DNA of 24,000 bases from Paenibacillus terricola (GTDB taxonomy: Bacteria; Bacillota; Bacilli; Paenibacillales; Paenibacillaceae): positions 824,066 through 848,065 of the forward strand of contig NZ_JACXZA010000002.1 in the NCBI RefSeq assembly GCF_014779765.1, in the 5' to 3' direction. Under the pieces are notes generated by a model. It was not told the DNA's origin and made no database searches. It saw only the letters and a program-made list of their open reading frames with translations. How positions within the stretch are numbered: the first letter of the stretch is position 1; each line of letters opens with the position of its first letter. The position numbers and the translations under genes are program-made. Positions 4,141 through 11,860 of this stretch are shown here, one piece after another.

Positions 4141-4308
4141 ATGCACCAATATCCAACCGCATCTTTACCGGTAGATGCCGTTCAGCAGATTCAGGATCTC
4201 GAGCATGCGTTATCGCGATCAACGGGAGACAATATCATTCTTATTGCGTACCAGCAGGACTCGAACGAGCAATCCGATGCTGCTCAATCGTTCTACGATA
4301 AGGATTAA
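4141..4308 (+). CDS. Small acidic hypothetical protein (55 aa)
   Basis: The ATG at 4141 is preceded by AAAAGGAGGG with a 7-8 nt spacer. The 4078 start in the ORF track lacks an SD. Product: MHQYPTASLPVDAVQQIQDLEHALSRSTGDNIILIAYQQDSNEQSDAAQSFYDKD. I recognise no family. Confidence 0.5.
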   Translation: MHQYPTASLPVDAVQQIQDLEHALSRSTGDNIILIAYQQDSNEQSDAAQSFYDKD

Positions 4309-5338: not shown

Positions 5339-5370
5339 TCCATCTGCAGGTCAAAAATGGAAGTTCGTAA

Positions 5371-5401
5371 TATAAAAATCACCCCTCATTCGAGGGGTGA
5401 T
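5371..5401 (-). terminator. Intrinsic terminator closing the Cys-peptide operon
   Basis: A perfect 10-bp stem, atcacccctc (5378-5387) with gaggggtgat (5392-5401), and a 4-nt loop. On the minus strand it is followed by TTTTATA. It begins 9 nt after the peptide stop codon. Confidence 0.85.
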
Positions 5402-5410
5402 CTCTACAAT

Positions 5411-5575
5411 CTAGCAGCAGCCGAGATTATATTGGCTAGTCAGTGTGCAAACGCCATCGCAATTGTAATAAATTTTATATTGAAAAGTTCTTTGATAATA
5501 AGCGCCGCCGGAGCACTGTGTGCTCAAGCAAGTTGCCGCGATTGGGCAAACTGAGTTATCAACTACACATGCCAT
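5411..5575 (-). CDS. 54-aa leaderless cysteine-rich peptide (8 Cys), candidate disulfide-rich defensin-like bacteriocin
   Basis: My own translation, not in the supplied track (under 60 aa): MACVVDNSVCPIAATCLSTQCSGGAYYQRTFQYKIYYNCDGVCTLTSQYNLGCC. ATG 5575 is preceded by AAGGGAGGTGA plus a 5-nt spacer. It lies 29 nt after the upstream gene stop and has a terminator 9 nt after its TAG. There is no signal peptide and no double-glycine leader. Confidence 0.7.
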   Translation of the reverse strand: MACVVDNSVCPIAATCLSTQCSGGAYYQRTFQYKIYYNCDGVCTLTSQYNLGCC

Positions 5576-5604
5576 GATTGTCACCTCCCTTCATAGGCAG
5601 TTTG

Positions 5605-6009
5605 TTAACCCTCGCCTACCGTAATATAAGTCTTACAAATTGGCCGTTCTTCTATTTCCAGCGAGTATTCGTAAACCCCCTCTTCGATAACCGGGAATCG
5701 AACATGTCCTATCATATCAATCCCTGGCACTCGGCCTGGCGGGCGCATATTCAAGATTGGCTGCAGCCCTACATAACTAAGAATCTTACCTGAAGCATTT
5801 CTTACAACAACGGCTGGAGAACGATTCTCCACATCGCCTTTCATCGATTCGGGAAACAACACCTTGACCAGCACTTCCGTTACAACCGCTGCAGGGAAAA
5901 TGGGTACAGTCACATGATTGTACGCGTGATGCACATTATGAAACTTTTCTTTGCTGTTGAACTGAACCTGCTCTGCGATGACGAGTTGGCCAACCACTTC
6001 ATTAAGCAT
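5605..6009 (-). CDS. Hypothetical protein (134 aa), unknown function, translationally coupled in the Cys-peptide operon
   Basis: ATG 6009 is preceded by GAAGGTGAT and overlaps the upstream stop (ATGCTTAA, an 8-nt overlap). The track start 6024 is a GTG inside the upstream gene. The product is beta-rich in appearance (VVVRNASGKILSYVG, EEGVYEYSLEIEERPICKTYITV), with no TM segment and no motif I can name. Confidence 0.7.
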   Translation of the reverse strand: MLNEVVGQLVIAEQVQFNSKEKFHNVHHAYNHVTVPIFPAAVVTEVLVKVLFPESMKGDVENRSPAVVVRNASGKILSYVGLQPILNMRPPGRVPGIDMIGHVRFPVIEEGVYEYSLEIEERPICKTYITVGEG

Positions 6010-6451
6010 TCCGATCACCTTCACTGTTCAGCGCTTGCGCAATTTGATCAAGCTGTTCGCCGTTCCCGTATTCAAGCACTTGTCCATCTGTATTCACAAC
6101 ATAAACGAATGGCGTGACCGGCACGTTGAAGTGATCATCATAATCCTCTAAGAACGAATAGATCGGGAAGTCAAACCCGAAGTATTCACGCATATCTTCC
6201 GTTTCCTCCAGATCACCATCTGTTACGAGAATGAAGCGATGATTGCCATTGAAACGCGCAAGCTCTGGAATTAATCGCATGCATGTACTGCAAGTCATCG
6301 AAATGAAATAAAAGATCGAAGTCGATTCAAGTTTAGGGGTTGGAGAAAGCTTCTCATAAGGAAACCTTTCGTTCTCGTCAAAAGGAGTAAACTCCGTTTT
6401 GCGCCCCCCATAGGCTTCCATAAATTTGCTCTTCAATTTCTCTAGCGACAT
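6002..6451 (-). CDS. Thioredoxin-fold thiol-disulfide oxidoreductase (TlpA/ResA-like), CSTC active site
   Basis: IFYFISMTCSTCMRLIPEL contains a CXXC motif after a beta strand. The later VPVTPFVYVVNTDGQV carries the cis-Pro region typical of the thioredoxin fold. SD AAGAGGGTGA precedes the ATG. No signal peptide or TM helix is visible. Confidence 0.8.
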   Translation of the reverse strand: MSLEKLKSKFMEAYGGRKTEFTPFDENERFPYEKLSPTPKLESTSIFYFISMTCSTCMRLIPELARFNGNHRFILVTDGDLEETEDMREYFGFDFPIYSFLEDYDDHFNVPVTPFVYVVNTDGQVLEYGNGEQLDQIAQALNSEGDRNA

Positions 6452-6468: not shown

Positions 6469-6930
6469 CTATACGATTTTGACTAGCGGTTCAACGATAT
6501 GATCGAACGCCCCCATGAACAGACAGTTGTTCGTTTCTACAACCTGTCCTAACCGATTAAGTACAAACCCGCTTGGCAGCTCCATTACCCGCATTCTCTT
6601 CGTCAGGTCATGTTTCGTTACCCGATAAACATGTGGTACCCGTTCACCGAACACTTGCTGCACTTCTTCAAACATTTCTTCTTTACAGTAGATCAGAATG
6701 GCTATGTTATAACGCTTATGATGCTGCTCAAGGAACTGATCGAGTATTTCCATGGATTCCAGACAGCTTGTGCATTCAACACTGTAGCATAAGAAGAACA
6801 AGTGGTTCGTAATGAGATCGTACAACCGGAGCTCCCCTGCGTTCAGTGTTTGAATCGATATATCCGGCAAGTAATCGCCAAGGATAAGCGGGGACTTGAA
6901 GTACCTACTAATAGAATCAGGTTGGTTCAT
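6469..6930 (-). CDS. Thioredoxin-fold thiol-disulfide oxidoreductase (AhpC/TSA-redoxin-like), CTSC active site
   Basis: GDYLPDISIQTLNAGELRLYDL...LFFLCYSVECTSCLESM is the redoxin-type entry to a CXXC, followed later by ELPSGFVLNRLGQVV. I prefer ATG 6930 (AAGGGAG with a 9-nt spacer, 16 nt after the upstream stop) over the TTG at 6960 in the track. Confidence 0.8.
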   Translation of the reverse strand: MNQPDSISRYFKSPLILGDYLPDISIQTLNAGELRLYDLITNHLFFLCYSVECTSCLESMEILDQFLEQHHKRYNIAILIYCKEEMFEEVQQVFGERVPHVYRVTKHDLTKRMRVMELPSGFVLNRLGQVVETNNCLFMGAFDHIVEPLVKIV

Positions 6931-6946: not shown

Positions 6947-7357
6947 CTAAGCAACGTCAAAGATTCGGCTGTGCTCGCGAATTCGATACTTCTGATCCGT
7001 GATCAAATAAGAAGGCAAGTCCATCAATTCAAGCTTACGAAGTCGCTCCGCATCTTCATCGGCAATAACTTGAATTCCAGCAGGCAGCTTTCTTTGCATC
7101 AGATCTGCTTTCCAAGCAGGCGCTTGTAACAATACAAGAATAGGAATCTCGCCATACTTCCTACGAATGTGCTCGATGTGACGCATATAGGCTCTATCTT
7201 CTAACCCGATGCCAAGGAGCGCTGTAACAGGACTTAATGAAATGCCCATCTCTTGCAAAATTACACTCTTCAGCCGCTGCTGTCGTATGCGAATGATACG
7301 AACCGAAACGGTAAACGCTGTCATGAATATAAGCCAAATCACAATGCCTAGTGTCAT
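6947..7357 (-). CDS. Membrane-anchored thioredoxin-fold-like protein lacking cysteines (redox-inactive paralogue)
   Basis: It has an N-terminal TM helix (GIVIWLIFMTAFTVSV). The C-terminal region is colinear with its two neighbours: ILVLLQAPAWKADL occupies the place of the CXXC, and LPSYLITDQKY aligns with PFVYVVNTDG and PSGFVLNRLG. The protein has no Cys at all. ATGA start/stop overlap with the upstream gene, and a GAAGGAGG SD. Confidence 0.65.
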   Translation of the reverse strand: MTLGIVIWLIFMTAFTVSVRIIRIRQQRLKSVILQEMGISLSPVTALLGIGLEDRAYMRHIEHIRRKYGEIPILVLLQAPAWKADLMQRKLPAGIQVIADEDAERLRKLELMDLPSYLITDQKYRIREHSRIFDVA

Positions 7358-7950
7358 AATGCCACCGCCTCCTTCTTCAGCTTATTCATATACGTCCATT
7401 CCACGTATAGCTGATAAAGATAAGCGATGGATGAATAGATGAGAAACATCGTAACATGCGGGTGTTCAATGCTTATGTAGGATGGTTGAAGACTTATCCC
7501 GAGCAAGGCTAATAGGGCGAGTATCGTATTGCGCACAATCGCGAGCTTCTGGTTCGTAAACTTATCGCTTCTGCCGAAGCAGGAGCACTTGATCGGTTTC
7601 TTGCTTAACTGTTGGCGCAGGAAGAGTAAGGAGAAACAAGCAAGCAATAGAAAAGCAGCAATGTAGCTGATACCAAGGAGGATGTTTAACGAGAAGGTAA
7701 CACCAAGCAGTAATTCAAGTCCAAGAACAGCAATGGATGCTAAGTAAGTCTTCCAATTAAGCTGTTTGCCGATAACATTGAAATCAACGATGGCGTATAA
7801 AAAAGGTCTGAAGCTGAGGAGTTTGGCCATGAACGAACTGAAAAACAACAGCGAAAAGATGCCAGGTAAAATTAGAATCGCAACCCCTACTTTCCAAGTG
7901 AGCGCTTCCACTTCTGTCCAATCACAGTTGTCTTGAGAGGATAATAGCAT
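7354..7950 (-). CDS. MauE/DoxX-family redox-associated integral membrane protein
   Basis: 198 aa with 4-5 predicted TM helices. A CSCFG motif lies between helices, matching the CxCFG signature I associate with the MauE family. It is the first gene of the operon. The SD upstream of ATG 7950 is weak. Confidence 0.7.
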   Translation of the reverse strand: MLLSSQDNCDWTEVEALTWKVGVAILILPGIFSLLFFSSFMAKLLSFRPFLYAIVDFNVIGKQLNWKTYLASIAVLGLELLLGVTFSLNILLGISYIAAFLLLACFSLLFLRQQLSKKPIKCSCFGRSDKFTNQKLAIVRNTILALLALLGISLQPSYISIEHPHVTMFLIYSSIAYLYQLYVEWTYMNKLKKEAVAL

Positions 7951-8001
7951 AGTGTTCGGAGTGAATCAACAAATTTATTTATCTTTTTATGGTTTTATTA
8001 A

Positions 8002-8030
8002 CTGATTTAGTCATCTAGATAGCAAATCAG
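8002..8030. promoter_or_regulatory. Dyad-symmetric element in the AT-rich region upstream of the Cys-peptide operon (possible operator)
   Basis: Plus strand ctgatttagtcATCTAGATagcaaatcag. The 7-bp outer arms CTGATTT and AAATCAG flank a perfect 8-bp palindrome ATCTAGAT. It lies 52-80 bp upstream of ATG 7950. Confidence 0.25.
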
Positions 8031-8171
8031 ATAATGTTGATATTAACGATTGGATTACTACTTTTTTTTATGATAAGTATGAATAACAAAGCACCCCTCC
8101 TGTTAGTCAGTTTCACCTCCTATCACTAGAAAATTCGATGAACAGAATCGCAATCACCGCTATACGATGCA

Positions 8172-8232: not shown

Positions 8233-9387
8233 TTACTTCCCAGTCATCGCAAATTGCAAATCGCTGATCGACAAGAATTCAACGAGCTCATCGTCGTTTG
8301 TGTTAAGTAGCATACTTAAATAATAGGACGGCTTGTTCGTTGACTCATTCATCTCTGCTTCGGTAAGAAGATGTAAGGACCCCACCGTGTCACCGCTGCT
8401 AATTAAATAAGTCAAATACGGTGATTGATAAGAAGTCGCTAGTCCATAAAGCCCCTCTATCACTTTCCGACTGTTTAGTAGTCCCGCACCACGCACCGTC
8501 TTGTAGAGCGTCTTGGACTCCTCACTCAGTCGGATCGTTAGTGCGACTACTTTGTCGTTACGATAAGCTACCAGGATGCCGTCATATCCAACTCCGCCGA
8601 TTCGCGAATCTGATATTGGCTCCCCCACGATGGCCTCAGCTTCCTTCCTCGTCATGCCGAGTGATATCGCGGACTGAGCTCCTCCATCAACTTTAATCAT
8701 AGATAAGTCTGCTAGCGTAATCGGCAGAGCGGGTTCATCCAATATAACAGCCTCGTTCATCTGAGTAACGTGTTTCTCTAATGCTTGTGTATAATCACTG
8801 CGTGAGATCTGAATACTGGACAGGCTGCCTAGTGCGTTCGATCCGAACTGGAGTTGATAAAAATCGGGTTGCCCTTCAAGCTGTTTCATCAACTCTTCTC
8901 CTTGCACAAGGTCAAGCGAATCAGTCTTACTGTCCCAATGATACCCGTATGCCATTGAATTCGGGATGGAGGCTTCTCCAAGTTTCTCGACCGCTTCATT
9001 CGGGCTTGTTTCCAAGCTAATCCCGTTCGACAACGAAGAATTCTCCCCGAACGAGAATAACGCAAGATGATCATCCATATAACCGACCGTCACATCGTCA
9101 TACATATAGTAATCGCTGCCTTCTGGCGAAAGGTATGCTTCAGGCTCTCCGAGCAGATTATCGATCTGCTCCTTGGACATTCCCATCTGTATCGTGACCG
9201 TATTCCCGTCCTTCTGCTGTACAATCGTTAACGCCTTATCGGATACGATCAGATTATCCTCAGCATTATGCTTGTTTAAGAGAATCAGTGATCCACCTGC
9301 GGCGGCTGCAAGCACAACTCCCGAAATAACGGAATACACCAATCTTCTTTTATGGTTCAACAGCCCCACAAGACTTCCTCTTTTCAT
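8233..9387 (-). CDS. Membrane-anchored hypothetical protein with two repeated extracytoplasmic domains
   Basis: An N-terminal anchor (VYSVISGVVLAAAAGGSLILL) is present. An internal repeat is visible: GMSKEQIDNLLGEPE...VTVGYMDDHLALFSF versus GMTRKEAEAIVGEPI...ILVAYRNDKVVALTI. No catalytic motif recognised. Confidence 0.75.
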   Translation of the reverse strand: MKRGSLVGLLNHKRRLVYSVISGVVLAAAAGGSLILLNKHNAEDNLIVSDKALTIVQQKDGNTVTIQMGMSKEQIDNLLGEPEAYLSPEGSDYYMYDDVTVGYMDDHLALFSFGENSSLSNGISLETSPNEAVEKLGEASIPNSMAYGYHWDSKTDSLDLVQGEELMKQLEGQPDFYQLQFGSNALGSLSSIQISRSDYTQALEKHVTQMNEAVILDEPALPITLADLSMIKVDGGAQSAISLGMTRKEAEAIVGEPISDSRIGGVGYDGILVAYRNDKVVALTIRLSEESKTLYKTVRGAGLLNSRKVIEGLYGLATSYQSPYLTYLISSGDTVGSLHLLTEAEMNESTNKPSYYLSMLLNTNDDELVEFLSISDLQFAMTGK

Positions 9388-9465
9388 AATTCTCTATATG
9401 TAACACAGACAGTAATTGTATATTTCGACACCATCCTTATTTTACCTTTTTAAGCATCTTTACTA

Positions 9466-9512
9466 TCAAAACAAAAACGTATGTTCCATTCACAGTTACG
9501 CGAATGGAACAT
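9466..9512 (-). terminator. Intrinsic terminator after the phosphotransferase gene
   Basis: Stem atgttccattc (9481-9491) with gaatggaacat (9502-9512), followed on the minus strand by ACGTTTTTGTTTTG. Confidence 0.75.
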
Positions 9513-9525
9513 ACGTCGTATATAA

Positions 9526-10449
9526 CTAGTCCTCAACTCGAGCTACGCATTCATTGAAATAAGCTAACGCCTGCTCATATTGCGGCGTGTTCACATAATA
9601 ATTCAAATGATCGAGCCCTATCCAAATATGATATGCGTGCTCAAAGTCCTCGAAATCTATCGCATTATAGTCCGTCGTATAATGCGCTAAGAAGCTGCTT
9701 CGGAAAGTGTTGTATACTTGTTGATCGTTGTATTGGAACTTCATCCAATACGTCAATCGCGCGAGCTCCGCCATCCAATTGTACGACATTGCATCATCCC
9801 AATCGATCAACGTTAGTTCGCCTTGAGCATCTATCATGACATTTTTCGTCGACAGATCTCCATGATTCAACACCGATGGCAAATTATCGCACAGGCGCAG
9901 TCTCGCCATTATTTGCTCCTTAAGCAGGTTTAGCCGGGACTGCTCGAACAATCCATGACATATCAAGGCATTCGAGATATCGTCATAATTGTCACTCATG
10001 AACGCCGAGAACGACGTATAGCCAGCCTCGCCGCTGCCGATATAACCATAATTGCGAACTCGAATGGCATGAACCTGGGATACCAGTCGAGCTAATTTGG
10101 CATAAAATTCTGAACCTGACTCTAAATCAAAAGCAATCAACGCAGCGTTCGTGCCAGGCACATACTCCTCGATTAGATACCCTGTCTCGAAATAGGGATC
10201 GCTGCGATCAAAGACGATGAGCTTCGCACATCGAATGTGATGCTCGATTAATTGGCGGTTTACGTATGCCAGCTTGCCGTCTTCTGGCCATGTTCTCTGT
10301 TTATAGGTTTTGAAAATATACGGCTTGCCGTTCGCAATGATCTTATAAACCTTATTATTCGGCACGTTCTCGAATGGCTCAATGGCATCCACTGTGCCTT
10401 GTACAATCTGTTCAACCTTATTCCGTATGTATGCGTAATTTTCGTTCAT
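9526..10449 (-). CDS. Phosphotransferase family protein (aminoglycoside/choline kinase-like, APH fold)
   Basis: The catalytic loop and metal-binding motif LNHGDLSTKNVMIDAQGELTLIDWDDA match the Brenner motif HGDxxxxN plus DWD. Size 307 aa. SD GAGGGAGG. Confidence 0.85.
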   Translation of the reverse strand: MNENYAYIRNKVEQIVQGTVDAIEPFENVPNNKVYKIIANGKPYIFKTYKQRTWPEDGKLAYVNRQLIEHHIRCAKLIVFDRSDPYFETGYLIEEYVPGTNAALIAFDLESGSEFYAKLARLVSQVHAIRVRNYGYIGSGEAGYTSFSAFMSDNYDDISNALICHGLFEQSRLNLLKEQIMARLRLCDNLPSVLNHGDLSTKNVMIDAQGELTLIDWDDAMSYNWMAELARLTYWMKFQYNDQQVYNTFRSSFLAHYTTDYNAIDFEDFEHAYHIWIGLDHLNYYVNTPQYEQALAYFNECVARVED

Positions 10450-11615: not shown

Positions 11616-11860
11616 TACATCAGGATCTTTGAACGGAGTTCAAAGTCACTCAGCTGCTACATCAGGATCTTTGAACGGAGTTCAAAGTCACTCAGCTGCT
11701 ACATCAGGATCTTTGAACACGACATAGGGATCTTTGCGCTCGCGCAAAGTCTCTCTGCTATCAAAGTCACTCTGCTGCTACATCAGGATCTTTGAACACG
11801 ACATAGGGATCTTTGCGCTCGCGCAAAGTCTCTCTGCTCTTAAAGTCACGCTGCTTTACA
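11616..11860. repeat. Tandem hairpin-forming repeat array filling the selD-mnmH intergenic spacer
   Basis: There are two identical 42-nt units (11616-11657, 11658-11699). Two 79-nt units follow (11700-11778, 11779-11857), identical over their first 59 nt. All four start with tacatcaggatctttgaac. Hairpins are CTTTGAAC-gga-GTTCAAAG and CTTTGCGC-tc-GCGCAAAG. Confidence 0.9.

What the first reader, a model, noticed from the sequence alone, without database searches (positions are those of the whole stretch)
5411..5575. Unannotated 54-aa leaderless peptide with eight cysteines; pattern resembles laterosporulin-type defensin-like bacteriocins
Seen in sequence: the ORF MACVVDNSVCPIAATCLSTQCSGGAYYQRTFQYKIYYNCDGVCTLTSQYNLGCC falls below the 60-aa cutoff of the supplied track. 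It has the best ribosome-binding site of the region (AAGGGAGGTGA with a 5-nt spacer) and a terminator 9 nt after its stop. It has 8 Cys, 7 Tyr, a Tyr-rich central stretch that looks like a beta hairpin, and a C-terminal GCC.

From memory, to be verified: laterosporulin and laterosporulin10 from Brevibacillus are leaderless, roughly 50-aa class IId bacteriocins. They begin Met-Ala-Cys, contain a C-P-x-A segment, a C-x-G, a YY/Y-rich strand and a C-x-N/D-G segment, and fold like defensins with three disulfides.

The peptide here shows the same landmark order: ACV, then CPIA, then CSG, then YY, then NCDG, then C. It has four potential disulfides rather than three.

Inference: it is a divergent new member or relative of that family.
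Basis: partly seen in the sequence, partly recalled or inferred. Interest (0 to 1): 0.85.

Follow-up and report, generated by a model that had tools for sequence, protein, structure and literature searches.

The report
New cysteine-rich leaderless bacteriocin candidate
A real, conserved and mostly unannotated 54-residue, eight-cysteine peptide gene ends a five-gene disulfide-bond-forming operon whose only relatives sit beside the defensin-like bacteriocin laterosporulin in Brevibacillus and beside unstudied peptides in Bacillus cereus, so it is probably a new kind of disulfide-stapled antimicrobial peptide.

Summary
The ORF is real. It lies at 5411-5575 on the minus strand, in Paenibacillus sp. 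PR3. It has a strong RBS and a strong terminator. It is intact in five sequence variants at syntenic loci, all eight Cys are invariant, and dN/dS is 0.05-0.26.

By sequence it is not a laterosporulin. The Pfam and NCBIfam laterosporulin models, a PDB search, BLASTP, hhalign and shuffle tests show at most marginal similarity, and the cysteine framework differs.

The peptide is the last gene of a six-gene operon:
- a MauE-like membrane protein with a CXC motif
- a membrane-anchored protein
- two CxxC thioredoxin-like proteins
- a DUF6941 protein
- the peptide

All five accessory proteins have one-to-one homologues next to a laterosporulin10 gene in Brevibacillus laterosporus. They also have homologues in Bacillus cereus megaplasmid clusters that carry triplicated leaderless 40-48-residue peptides ending in GCC. 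The Paenibacillus peptide is weakly similar to those peptides.

The Paenibacillus loci lack the ABC exporter found in the other two clades.

Verdict: this is a new peptide family within a laterosporulin-type, MauE-dependent disulfide-maturation system. Antimicrobial activity, fold and disulfide pairing remain untested.

The parts
5411..5575 (-). Structural gene: 54-aa leaderless peptide with 8 Cys. After Met removal the product is 53 aa, 5764.5 Da when reduced, pI about 5.9.
   Evidence: Intact in 5 variants, all Cys invariant, dN/dS 0.05-0.26.
5581..5591 (-). Shine-Dalgarno AAGGGAGGTGA, 5 nt before the ATG.
   Evidence: AA(A/G)GGAGGTGA is conserved in all five loci.
5366..5408 (-). Intrinsic terminator: hairpin core ATCACCCCTC-GAAT-GAGGGGTGAT followed by a T-run. 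It is the only terminator of the operon.
   Evidence: -25.9 kcal/mol, z -7.8. one search shows the stem conserved and the loop variable in all loci.
5605..6009 (-). 134-aa DUF6941-like protein with a predicted Ig-like beta-sandwich and no signal peptide. It lies immediately upstream of the peptide gene. Role unknown; chaperone, immunity or adaptor are candidates.
   Evidence: Homologues: L010 p132 (DUF6941 35 bits) and L014 p134 (42% id, 2e-25).
6002..6451 (-). Thioredoxin-like protein B, 149 aa, invariant C-[SA]-T-C motif, no signal peptide.
   Evidence: Homologues: L010 trx144 (9e-13) and L014 trx148 (4e-13).
6469..6930 (-). Thioredoxin-like protein A, 153 aa from the conserved Met (the ORF extends to 6960), invariant CTSC motif, no signal peptide.
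   Evidence: Homologues: L010 trx161 (2e-4) and L014 trx154 (1e-16).
6947..7357 (-). 136-aa protein with one N-terminal TM helix followed by a K/R cluster. It has no Cys. An A-P-x-W motif is conserved in all three clades. It may be a degenerate thioredoxin fold; that test was inconclusive.
   Evidence: 2e-8 vs L010 p138; hhalign vs Trx-likes prob 4.7%, E 0.0085.
7354..7911 (-). MauE-like membrane protein, 185 aa from the GTG at 7911. It has an invariant C-S-C motif in the TM3-TM4 loop. It is the presumed quinone-linked disulfide generator.
   Evidence: Pfam MauE 7.9e-19; start, conservation; 34% id, 3e-24 vs L010; 30% id vs L014. The MauE CXC active site is from bioRxiv 10.64898/2026.03.05.709764.
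7941..7969 (-). Sigma-70-type promoter TTGATT-17-(TG)-TATTAT, invariant in all five loci. It overlaps the ATG at 7950, which is therefore not the start codon.
   Evidence: A 1-nt indel among loci between 7912 and 7950 shows this stretch is non-coding.
7970..8061 (-). AT-rich block of about 90 nt upstream of the promoter, conserved across loci. It is a candidate regulator-binding region.
   Evidence: alignment A4. No Rfam match.

Best explanation
The ORF encodes a ribosomally made, leaderless, disulfide-stapled peptide. It is the structural gene of a laterosporulin-type class IId bacteriocin system, but it belongs to a previously undescribed peptide family with eight Cys and a C-terminal GCC.

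Proposed mechanism:
1. The six-gene operon is transcribed from one sigma-70-type promoter to one terminator.
2. The initiator Met is removed, because Ala is the next residue.
3. The eight cysteines are oxidised to up to four disulfides by the two CxxC thioredoxin-like proteins.
4. Those proteins are re-oxidised by the CXC loop of the MauE-like membrane protein, which passes the electrons to the quinone pool. This parallels DsbB/DsbA and MauE/MauD.
5. The Cys-free membrane-anchored protein and the DUF6941 beta-sandwich protein act as scaffold, chaperone or immunity factors.
6. The compact peptide then leaves the cell through an exporter that, in this clade, is not encoded in the operon.

Shown: the gene is real and under purifying selection; the operon architecture; the homology of all five accessory genes to those next to a laterosporulin10 gene and next to the B. 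cereus peptides; the conserved redox motifs.

Inferred: the electron path, four disulfides, export and antimicrobial activity.
For: Real gene.

One operon: genes overlap or lie 16-29 nt apart, with a single conserved promoter and a single terminator.

Accessory proteins:
- MauE family, 7.9e-19, with CSC in the TM3-TM4 loop.
- MauE is shown experimentally to replace DsbB through a CXC site and is proposed to act through thioredoxin-fold partners (bioRxiv 10.64898/2026.03.05.709764).
- Both Trx-like proteins keep their CxxC motif in every locus.

Homology to the B. laterosporus B9 locus L010:
- L010 holds a peptide that scores 5.5e-21 on Pfam Laterosporulin and 1.4e-36 on NCBIfam laterosporulin.
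- It is followed by homologues of all five accessory genes: MauE 3e-24, trxB 9e-13, p136 2e-8, p134 2e-6, trxA 2e-4.

Homology to B. cereus megaplasmid loci L014 and L015:
- The same five genes are present (p134 42% id, 2e-25; trxA 1e-16; trxB 4e-13; MauE 5e-10).
- They are followed by three tandem leaderless Cys-rich peptide genes and an ABC transporter.
- The window peptide is weakly similar to those peptides: shuffle z 2.5-3.7, p 0.002-0.02; hhalign E 0.0086 over K..CDG..GCC.

From the literature:
- Laterosporulin is a leaderless, Met-processed peptide with three disulfides and antibacterial activity (PMC3293901; PMC8529825).
- Its 4 kb and ~6.7 kb clusters failed to express heterologously (PMC6510442). 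That fits a requirement for further linked genes.
Against: - No exporter or ABC ATPase homologue lies in the window or within 6-10 kb in any Paenibacillus locus. Both related clades have one.
- No regulator gene is linked.
- The peptide is near-neutral (pI about 5.9), not cationic.
- Homology of the peptide to laterosporulins is not statistically detectable.
- The AlphaFold2 model has low confidence (pLDDT 53). Foldseek against PDB found nothing below E = 2, so the fold and the disulfide geometry are untested.
- No activity data exist for this peptide or for the B. cereus peptides. No paper holds their sequences.
- The family is tiny: five variants, and one species among 185,579 genome representatives.
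Confidence: 0.6

Rival explanations
1. Strict family membership. The peptide is a true, highly diverged homologue of laterosporulin with the same four-stranded defensin-like fold. Six of its Cys (3, 10, 21, 39, 43, 53/54) reproduce the beta-defensin-like C1-C5/C2-C4/C3-C6 pattern, and Cys16 plus the second C-terminal Cys add a fourth staple.
For: - The accessory cassette is shared.
- Precursor length is identical to LS10 (54 aa), and both have the Met-Ala-Cys-Val start and a Cys-Pro.
- Shuffle p is about 0.04 against LS10 and BGSP9-type sequences.
- The AF2 model, though of low confidence, is all-beta with a hairpin turning at C39-D40-G41.
Against: - The Pfam and NCBIfam laterosporulin models do not match.
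- hhalign aligns only 3-4 columns.
- Every inter-cysteine spacing differs.
- The better, though still weak, sequence match is to the B. cereus GCC-type peptides, which themselves show no similarity to laterosporulins.
- Relative to the B. cereus peptides, the extra pair would be Cys10 and Cys43. That does not fit a simple 'laterosporulin plus one disulfide' mapping.
Confidence: 0.25
2. Same components, different geometry. The MauE-like protein has the canonical orientation with its CXC loop outside the cell. It oxidises the peptide after export, directly or through housekeeping BdbD-type proteins. The two cytoplasmic Trx-like proteins act reductively, either keeping the precursor reduced before export or protecting the producer by reducing re-entering peptide.
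For: - Tested MauE proteins place the CXC loop in the periplasm (TOPCONS prediction plus complementation of a dsbB deletion).
- The CXC motif lies in the same TM3-TM4 loop here.
- The preprint notes that an earlier study proposed MauE acts as a reductase.
Against: - No CxxC partner with a signal peptide or membrane anchor is encoded in any of the three clades.
- The only anchored protein lacks Cys, and its K/R cluster follows the TM helix, which suggests its domain is cytoplasmic.
- K/R residues are concentrated in loops 1 and 3 and the C-tail of the MauE-like protein in all three clades.
Confidence: 0.25
3. Not a secreted antimicrobial. In this Paenibacillus clade the peptide has a cell-associated role, for example a Cys/Tyr-rich structural or redox peptide of the envelope or spore, or a signalling peptide. 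The exporter would have been lost.
For: - No transporter is linked in any of the loci, yet purifying selection is strong.
- The peptide is rich in Cys and Tyr and near-neutral, in a spore-forming genus (that spore-coat proteins are Cys/Tyr-rich is my own knowledge).
- All soluble cassette proteins look cytoplasmic.
Against: - The promoter is an invariant sigma-70-type extended -10 element, not a recognisable sporulation-sigma promoter.
- The only characterised relatives of the system are secreted bacteriocins.
- An exporter may be encoded elsewhere in the genome, which could not be searched.
Confidence: 0.12
4. Chance ORF or non-coding sequence below the annotation cut-off.
For: - It is unannotated in PR3 and was not called in the metagenomic and Logan loci.
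- No domain hit.
Against: - Intact in five variants with dN/dS 0.05-0.26 and dS up to 1.7.
- RBS and terminator are conserved and all 8 Cys are invariant.
- It is annotated in P. cellulosilyticus.
Confidence: 0.01

Closest known systems
Laterosporulin / laterosporulin10 (Brevibacillus; PDB 4OZK, 6LWY, 6LWZ; Pfam PF17861; NCBIfam NF033806)
   Same: - Leaderless Met-Ala-Cys start and a 50-54-aa precursor.
- Cys-rich and polar, not strongly cationic.
- Cys-Pro near the N-terminus, C-x-G, an aromatic-rich centre.
- Encoded beside homologues of all five accessory genes: MauE-like, TM-anchored protein, two Trx-like proteins, DUF6941.
   Different: - 8 Cys against 6, every spacing differs, and a C-terminal CC.
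- No match to the family models or to the solved sequences.
- The peptide gene is last in the operon here and first in Brevibacillus.
- No linked ABC transporter and no LuxR-type regulator.
Uncharacterised peptide clusters on B. cereus-group megaplasmids (L014 NZ_CP106676.1; L015 NZ_CP053952.1). Peptides are annotated 'hypothetical protein' (WP_196776159.1, WP_000035098.1).
   Same: - The closest accessory proteins (p134 42% id, trxA 31%, trxB 30%, MauE 30%).
- The DUF6941 gene immediately precedes the peptide gene(s).
- Peptides are leaderless (MGAC.., MAPC..).
- Shared C-G-[SN], C-D-G and Y-x-G-C-C end. Similarity is weak but above shuffles.
   Different: - 40-48 aa with 6 Cys, and three tandem copies.
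- The ABC transporter is present.
- Carried on a plasmid rather than at a syntenic chromosomal site.
MauE/MauD of methylamine dehydrogenase maturation, and MauE as a DsbB-like disulfide generator (bioRxiv 10.64898/2026.03.05.709764)
   Same: - A MauE-family membrane protein with CXC in the TM3-TM4 loop.
- It is paired with CxxC thioredoxin-fold proteins.
- It sits next to a small, very Cys-rich substrate.
   Different: - The substrate is a leaderless 54-aa peptide, not a Sec/Tat-exported enzyme subunit.
- The Trx-like partners have no signal peptide or anchor.
- The charge distribution suggests the opposite membrane orientation. That is inference only.
Sublancin 168 operon sunA-sunT-bdbA-sunS-bdbB (B. 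subtilis SP-beta); from my own knowledge, not checked here
   Same: A bacteriocin operon that carries its own thiol-disulfide oxidoreductases for a disulfide-containing peptide.
   Different: - The sublancin operon uses BdbB (DsbB family) and BdbA, a leader peptide, a C39-peptidase ABC transporter and a glycosyltransferase.
- None of these is present here.
Actifensins and other defensin-like bacteriocins (PMC6989792)
   Same: Small, disulfide-rich, ribosomal antimicrobial peptides from Gram-positive bacteria, proposed as a 'defensin-like' class II subgroup together with the laterosporulins.
   Different: - Actifensins are cysteine-stabilised alpha-beta-type peptides with leaders and unrelated operons.
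- No sequence or context similarity was found.

Membership tests
Laterosporulin family (Pfam PF17861 / NCBIfam NF033806) | Significant match to the curated family models or to the solved members | tested here: not met
   - No hit at E<=10 (Pfam) or E<=1 (NCBIfam) for the window peptide.
- The L010 peptide scores 75 and 125 bits on the same models.
- PDB phmmer found nothing at E<=10.
- BLASTP E 0.33-0.54.
- hhalign probability 0.9-1.6%.
Laterosporulin family | Six-Cys framework C-x1/3-C-x13-C-x14-C-x7-C-x7-C | tested here: not met
   The window family has C-x6-C-x5-C-x4-C-x17-C-x3-C-x9-CC, invariant in 5 variants. Six Cys can be put in the same order only by allowing gaps in every segment.
Laterosporulin family | Leaderless precursor starting Met-Ala-Cys, with Met removed | tested here: met
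   MAC start with no signal peptide, in all variants. Met removal is inferred from Ala at position 2 and from N-terminal sequencing of laterosporulin (PMC3293901).
Laterosporulin family | Twisted four-stranded beta-sheet stapled by three disulfides in a beta-defensin-like pattern | tested here: inconclusive
   - AF2 with a 2-sequence alignment gave pLDDT 53 and three strands.
- Foldseek against PDB found no match below E = 2.
Laterosporulin-type gene cluster | Linked MauE-like, TM-anchored, two Trx-like and DUF6941 genes | tested here: met
   One-to-one homologues of all five. This gene set is defined here from L010; I found no publication that describes it.
Laterosporulin-type gene cluster | Linked ABC exporter and transcriptional regulator | tested here: not met
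   tblastn with the L010 and L014 ABC proteins finds nothing in the window or in any Paenibacillus locus. There is no LuxR-type gene next to the cassette.
Class IId (leaderless, linear, unmodified except for disulfides) bacteriocin | Secreted peptide with antimicrobial activity | not testable with these tools
   Needs purification or synthesis and bioassay.
MauE family (PF07291), for the 185-aa protein | Pfam match above threshold, and a CXC motif in the loop between TM3 and TM4 | tested here: met
   - 68.7 bits against a cut-off of 27.
- C-S-C at residues 109-111 of the 185-aa form, invariant in three clades.
Thioredoxin-fold thiol-disulfide oxidoreductases, for the 153- and 149-aa proteins | Thioredoxin-like fold with a CxxC motif | tested here: met
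   - Sub-threshold Pfam and NCBIfam hits to Thioredoxin_8, Redoxin, ResA, StoA and MauD.
- CTSC and C[SA]TC invariant.
- Homologues in L010 and L014 hit AhpC-TSA, Thioredoxin_2 and ResA.
- No model reaches its curated cut-off, so these are divergent members.
DUF6941 (PF22091), for the 134-aa protein | Pfam match above the gathering score | tested here: inconclusive
   - The window protein scores 16.7 bits, below the cut-off of 27.
- Its L010 homologue scores 35.4 bits and its L014 homologue 20.9.
- Membership follows by transitivity only.

The most novel reading that the evidence does not exclude
The cassette may be a naturally cytoplasm-facing oxidative-folding pathway. In this reading the MauE-like protein is inserted with its CXC loop towards the cytoplasm. 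There it re-oxidises two signal-peptide-less CxxC thioredoxin-like proteins, and these staple a leaderless peptide with up to four disulfides inside a mesophilic bacterial cell, before export or release.

What fits this reading:
- No export signal on either Trx-like protein in any of three clades.
- The K/R cluster lies after the TM helix of the anchor protein.
- K/R residues are concentrated in loops 1 and 3 and the C-tail of the MauE-like protein.

The orientation was not tested with a topology predictor and has not been tested by experiment.
Probability: 0.25. Interest if true: 0.85.

Novelty: new variant of a known kind. Interest (0 to 1): 0.62.

Why it matters
1. It adds an uncharacterised, very compact eight-Cys scaffold. 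It also points to the related B. cereus GCC-type peptides. Only the laterosporulins and actifensins have been described as expressed defensin-like bacteriocins (PMC6989792).

2. Comparing three clades defines a conserved five-gene maturation module: a MauE-like disulfide generator, two Trx-like proteins, an anchored Cys-free partner and DUF6941. I found no description of this module in the laterosporulin literature. The published 4 kb laterosporulin fragment stops before the MauE-like gene and could not be expressed heterologously. A ~6.7 kb fragment also failed; I could not establish which genes it contains. The missing module is a concrete, testable explanation.

3. It gives MauE, only recently shown to be a DsbB-like enzyme, a dedicated natural substrate in Gram-positive bacteria. 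It also raises the possibility of oxidative folding on the cytoplasmic side.

Tried and rejected
Searches for relatives of the peptide:
- Direct homology searches found only the P. cellulosilyticus orthologue. This covers the 5.8-billion-cluster word-indexed search and full HMMER against 1.84 billion representatives. The other HMMER hits were translations of repetitive DNA.
- The genome-contig scan with the peptide alignment returned only P. cellulosilyticus. A second hit lay out of frame inside recA and is spurious.
- The metagenome scan with the MauE-like alignment returned only same-clade loci and one 1.1-kb fragment. No intermediates were found.
- Word-indexed searches with the 134-aa and MauE-like proteins found only the same clade.
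- The decisive link came instead from tblastn against plasmid records.

Structure:
- The AF2 model of the peptide had low confidence, and the Foldseek search on it was uninformative.
- The model of the 134-aa protein (pLDDT 74) matched only generic Ig-like beta-sandwiches. That gave no functional clue.

Other checks:
- The weak Pfam hit of the peptide to DUF2436 (16.5 bits against a cut-off of 25) was dismissed as compositional.
- Rfam found nothing in the window.
- A 'MauE + bacteriocin' literature search mostly matched author names.

Ideas considered and set aside:
- Metallothionein-like metal binding. The peptide has seven aromatic residues and sits in a disulfide-forming context.
- A glycocin, sactipeptide or other modified ribosomal peptide. 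No glycosyltransferase or radical-SAM gene is present.
- A functional link to the nearby selD/selU genes. The spacing and the intervening genes vary among loci.
- A spore-coat peptide. This is kept as a low-probability rival.
Full report

The window encodes the 54-codon ORF MACVVDNSVCPIAATCLSTQCSGGAYYQRTFQYKIYYNCDGVCTLTSQYNLGCC at 5411-5575 on the minus strand.
- The RBS AAGGGAGGTGA (5591-5581) is followed by the spacer CAATC and the ATG.
- The alternative GTG at 5584 lies inside the RBS, so it is not the start.
- Downstream, the hairpin ATCACCCCTC-GAAT-GAGGGGTGAT plus a U-tract folds at -25.9 kcal/mol. This is z = -7.8 against shuffles.
- The peptide has 8 Cys, but 6 Tyr rather than 7.

The neighbouring proteins are 100% identical to Paenibacillus sp. 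PR3 proteins H8B09_11070 and H8B09_11090. The exact peptide is not in the 15-billion-protein collection, so it is unannotated in PR3. The only hit is a 55-aa 'hypothetical protein' of P. cellulosilyticus, 78% identical.

**2. Is it a gene?**

I fetched the syntenic loci through the neighbouring 134-aa protein. tblastn found the ORF intact in every one.
- There are five distinct variants, 72-93% identical to the window peptide and all 54 aa, with all 8 Cys and the block NCDGVCTL.SQYN..CC invariant.
- Nei-Gojobori dN/dS is 0.05-0.26 while dS is 0.7-1.7. One pair is saturated.
- The RBS and the terminator stem are conserved, while the terminator loop varies.

This is a protein-coding gene under strong purifying selection.

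**3. Is it a laterosporulin by sequence?**

No. The sequences I recalled were confirmed against PDB entries 4OZK, 6LWY and 6LWZ. More variants came from PMC6510442.
- phmmer of the window peptide against PDB found nothing at E<=10.
- BLASTP gave E = 0.33 and 0.54 in single comparisons.
- hhalign of the five-variant profile against three or six laterosporulins aligned only 3-4 columns, with probability 0.9-1.6%.
- Global alignments scored z of about 0-2 against composition-preserving shuffles.
- Pfam PF17861 and NCBIfam NF033806 score a real laterosporulin10-like peptide at 5.5e-21 and 1.4e-36. Neither matches the window peptide.
- The cysteine spacing differs in every segment.
- Full HMMER against 1.84 billion representatives found no distant relative. 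The extra hits were repeat-DNA translations.
- The peptide structure model was of low confidence (pLDDT 53), and Foldseek was uninformative. The fold is therefore untested.

**4. The surroundings**

The peptide is the last gene of a tight minus-strand operon. In order of transcription:
- **MauE-like membrane protein**, 7354-7911. Pfam MauE 7.9e-19, with C-S-C in the TM3-TM4 loop.
- **136-aa protein**, 6947-7357. It has one N-terminal TM helix, then a K/R cluster, and no Cys.
- **Thioredoxin-like protein with CTSC**, 6469-6930.
- **Thioredoxin-like protein with C[SA]TC**, 6002-6451.
- **134-aa protein**, 5605-6009. It gives a weak DUF6941 hit. The AF2 model (pLDDT 74) is an Ig-like beta-sandwich with only generic structural neighbours.
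- **The peptide**, 5411-5575.

Genes overlap or are 16-29 nt apart. The alignment of upstream regions shows three things:
- An invariant TTGATT-17-TGnTATTAT promoter at 7969-7941.
- A 1-nt indel between it and the GTG at 7911. The longer ATG start at 7950 is therefore wrong.
- A conserved AT-rich block of about 90 nt further upstream.

A 2026 preprint shows that MauE proteins replace DsbB in E. coli through a CXC site in exactly this loop. It proposes that they work through thioredoxin-fold partners. The operon is therefore a dedicated disulfide-forming module attached to an eight-Cys peptide.

**5. Relatives of the module**

Word-indexed searches with the 134-aa and MauE-like proteins found only the same small Paenibacillus clade. 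tblastn against plasmid records was decisive.

*Brevibacillus laterosporus B9, locus L010.* The MauE-like protein matches this 1.38-Mb replicon at 34% identity (3e-24). The locus contains:
- a LuxR-type regulator
- a laterosporulin10-like gene, MACVNQCPDAIDRFIVKDKGCHGVEKKYYKQVYAVCMNGQNLYCRTEWGGPCQL
- a Trx-like protein with CKYC
- an ABC transporter
- a Trx-like protein with CSYC
- a MauE-like protein with CSC
- a TM-anchored 138-aa protein
- a DUF6941 protein (35 bits)

Reciprocal BLASTP pairs every window accessory protein with one of these: 3e-24, 2e-8, 2e-4, 9e-13 and 2e-6. The first genes match the published 4 kb laterosporulin region of regulator, peptide, hypothetical protein, ABC transporter and 'dehydrogenase' (PMC3293901). 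That published region ends before the MauE-like gene.

*Bacillus cereus-group megaplasmids.* A second tblastn led to loci L014 and L015. Their gene order is:
- two Trx-like proteins
- a MauE-like protein
- a TM-anchored protein that shares the A-P-x-W motif
- a DUF6941 protein
- three tandem leaderless peptide genes, MGACKDVRTGVKKCANACGSTKLLRWEKIQVICDGKEAGTKDDYIGCC or MAPCQYLFEFCAGDCGNGRQLKWKKYVCDDGNKDVYVGCC
- an ABC transporter

These accessory proteins are the closest to the window's: p134 42% identity (2e-25), trxA 1e-16, trxB 4e-13, MauE 5e-10.

The window peptide is weakly but reproducibly similar to these peptides:
- BLASTP E of about 0.01.
- Shuffle z of 2.5-3.7 for two of the three Paenibacillus variants tested (p 0.002-0.02). 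The third gave z of about 1.9 (p about 0.05-0.06).
- hhalign E = 0.0086 over K..CDG..GCC.

The B. cereus peptides show no similarity to laterosporulins. I found no paper containing these peptide sequences or the name DUF6941.

**6. Interpretation**

The accessory module is clearly homologous in three clades. The peptides it serves have diverged beyond reliable sequence recognition into three types:
- laterosporulins, with 6 Cys
- the B. cereus GCC-type, with 6 Cys
- the Paenibacillus type, with 8 Cys

The Paenibacillus peptide combines landmarks of both others. It shares the Met-Ala-Cys start, Cys-Pro and a Cys after the C-D-G turn with laterosporulins. It shares C-x3/4-C-[GS], C-D-G and the terminal GCC with the B. 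cereus type.

I therefore read it as the structural peptide of a laterosporulin-type system, but as a new peptide family rather than a member of the curated laterosporulin family. Antimicrobial function is inferred from the one characterised relative.

**7. Mechanism and open points**

The shown and inferred steps are listed under the best explanation. Two points stand out.

*No exporter.* No Paenibacillus locus carries the ABC exporter, or any ABC ATPase homologue, within 6-10 kb. Either export depends on a gene elsewhere, or the peptide is not secreted.

*Possible cytoplasmic orientation.* None of the CxxC Trx-like proteins in any clade has a signal peptide or anchor. The anchored protein has its K/R cluster after the TM helix. 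The K/R residues of the MauE-like proteins sit in loops 1 and 3 (the CXC loop) and the C-tail. By the positive-inside rule, the whole relay would then face the cytoplasm, opposite to the tested MauE proteins. This rests on charge counting only.

A Gemmatirosa MauE-Trx fusion that I looked at for comparison did not give a clean control. I rate the inverted-topology reading at about 0.25.

**8. Novelty and value**

The kind of system is known: a defensin-like, leaderless, disulfide-stapled bacteriocin. The following appear to be new:
- the peptide family
- the B. cereus relatives
- the recognition of a conserved MauE-based maturation module shared with laterosporulin

Heterologous expression of the 4 kb laterosporulin fragment, which lacks the MauE-like gene, and of a ~6.7 kb fragment both failed (PMC6510442). 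The module offers a testable explanation, at least for the shorter fragment.

The cassette has a slightly lower GC content than its surroundings, 44.5% against 47.3%. It sits at the same chromosomal site, between selD-selU and the NfeD-flotillin genes, in all Paenibacillus loci. The neighbouring gene content varies.

Noticed in passing
L014:8347-8851 and L015:6448-7080: B. cereus-group megaplasmids carry three tandem copies of leaderless 48-aa or 40-aa six-Cys peptides ending in GCC. They lie downstream of the same MauE/Trx/DUF6941 cassette and upstream of an ABC transporter. All are annotated as hypothetical proteins, and no paper holds their sequences.
   Followed up: partly
L010:4975-9351: In B. 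laterosporus B9 the laterosporulin10-like gene is followed by MauE-like, TM-anchored and DUF6941 genes. These lie beyond the published 4 kb cluster and may be the 'other host factors' blamed for failed heterologous expression. The record carries no annotation in this stretch.
   Followed up: partly
window 7970-8061 (-): An AT-rich block of about 90 nt upstream of the operon promoter is conserved at the nucleotide level across the Paenibacillus loci. It contains repeated GTTAATA motifs and a partial inverted repeat, CTGATTT..AAATCAG. It is probably a regulator-binding site. No regulator gene is linked.
   Followed up: partly
window 7912-7950 (-): Gene callers disagree on the MauE-like start: 158 aa in the PR3 record, 199 aa in P. 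cellulosilyticus and 185 aa in the metagenomes. A frame-breaking indel and the invariant promoter show that the GTG at 7911 (185 aa) is the start.
   Followed up: yes
window 11616-11855: Two overlapping tandem-repeat arrays lie in the intergenic region between selU and selD. One has a 42-bp unit in 2.5 copies at 100% match. The other has a 79-bp unit in 2.2 copies at 95% match.
   Followed up: no
window 4141-4308 (+): A conserved 55-aa acidic protein, MHQYPTASLPVDAVQQIQDLEHALS..., is present at all syntenic loci (73-83% identity to the metagenomic variant) next to the NfeD-flotillin genes. Its function is unknown and it is not part of the cassette.
   Followed up: partly
L016:2200-3415: On a Gemmatirosa kalamazoonensis plasmid, a MauE-thioredoxin fusion (CGC loop, CAHC) is immediately preceded by a reading frame. 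That frame ends in a signal-peptide-like segment plus a six-Cys tail, ..GACTDLLRGCDINTCTGTCKRTFDSAGNFIGCDCV. MauE may be coupled to small Cys-rich peptides well outside Bacillota.
   Followed up: no
window 8233-10449 versus L001:2413-7413, L002:2843-3301: The stretch between selU and the cassette is a variable spot. PR3 has an APH-like kinase and a 384-aa BamE/DUF7738-like protein. P. cellulosilyticus has an RND transporter, an ECF sigma/anti-sigma pair and a 277-aa protein. Another relative has a DinB_2 protein. The SDR and HbpS-like genes found downstream of the peptide gene in some loci are absent from the window.
   Followed up: no
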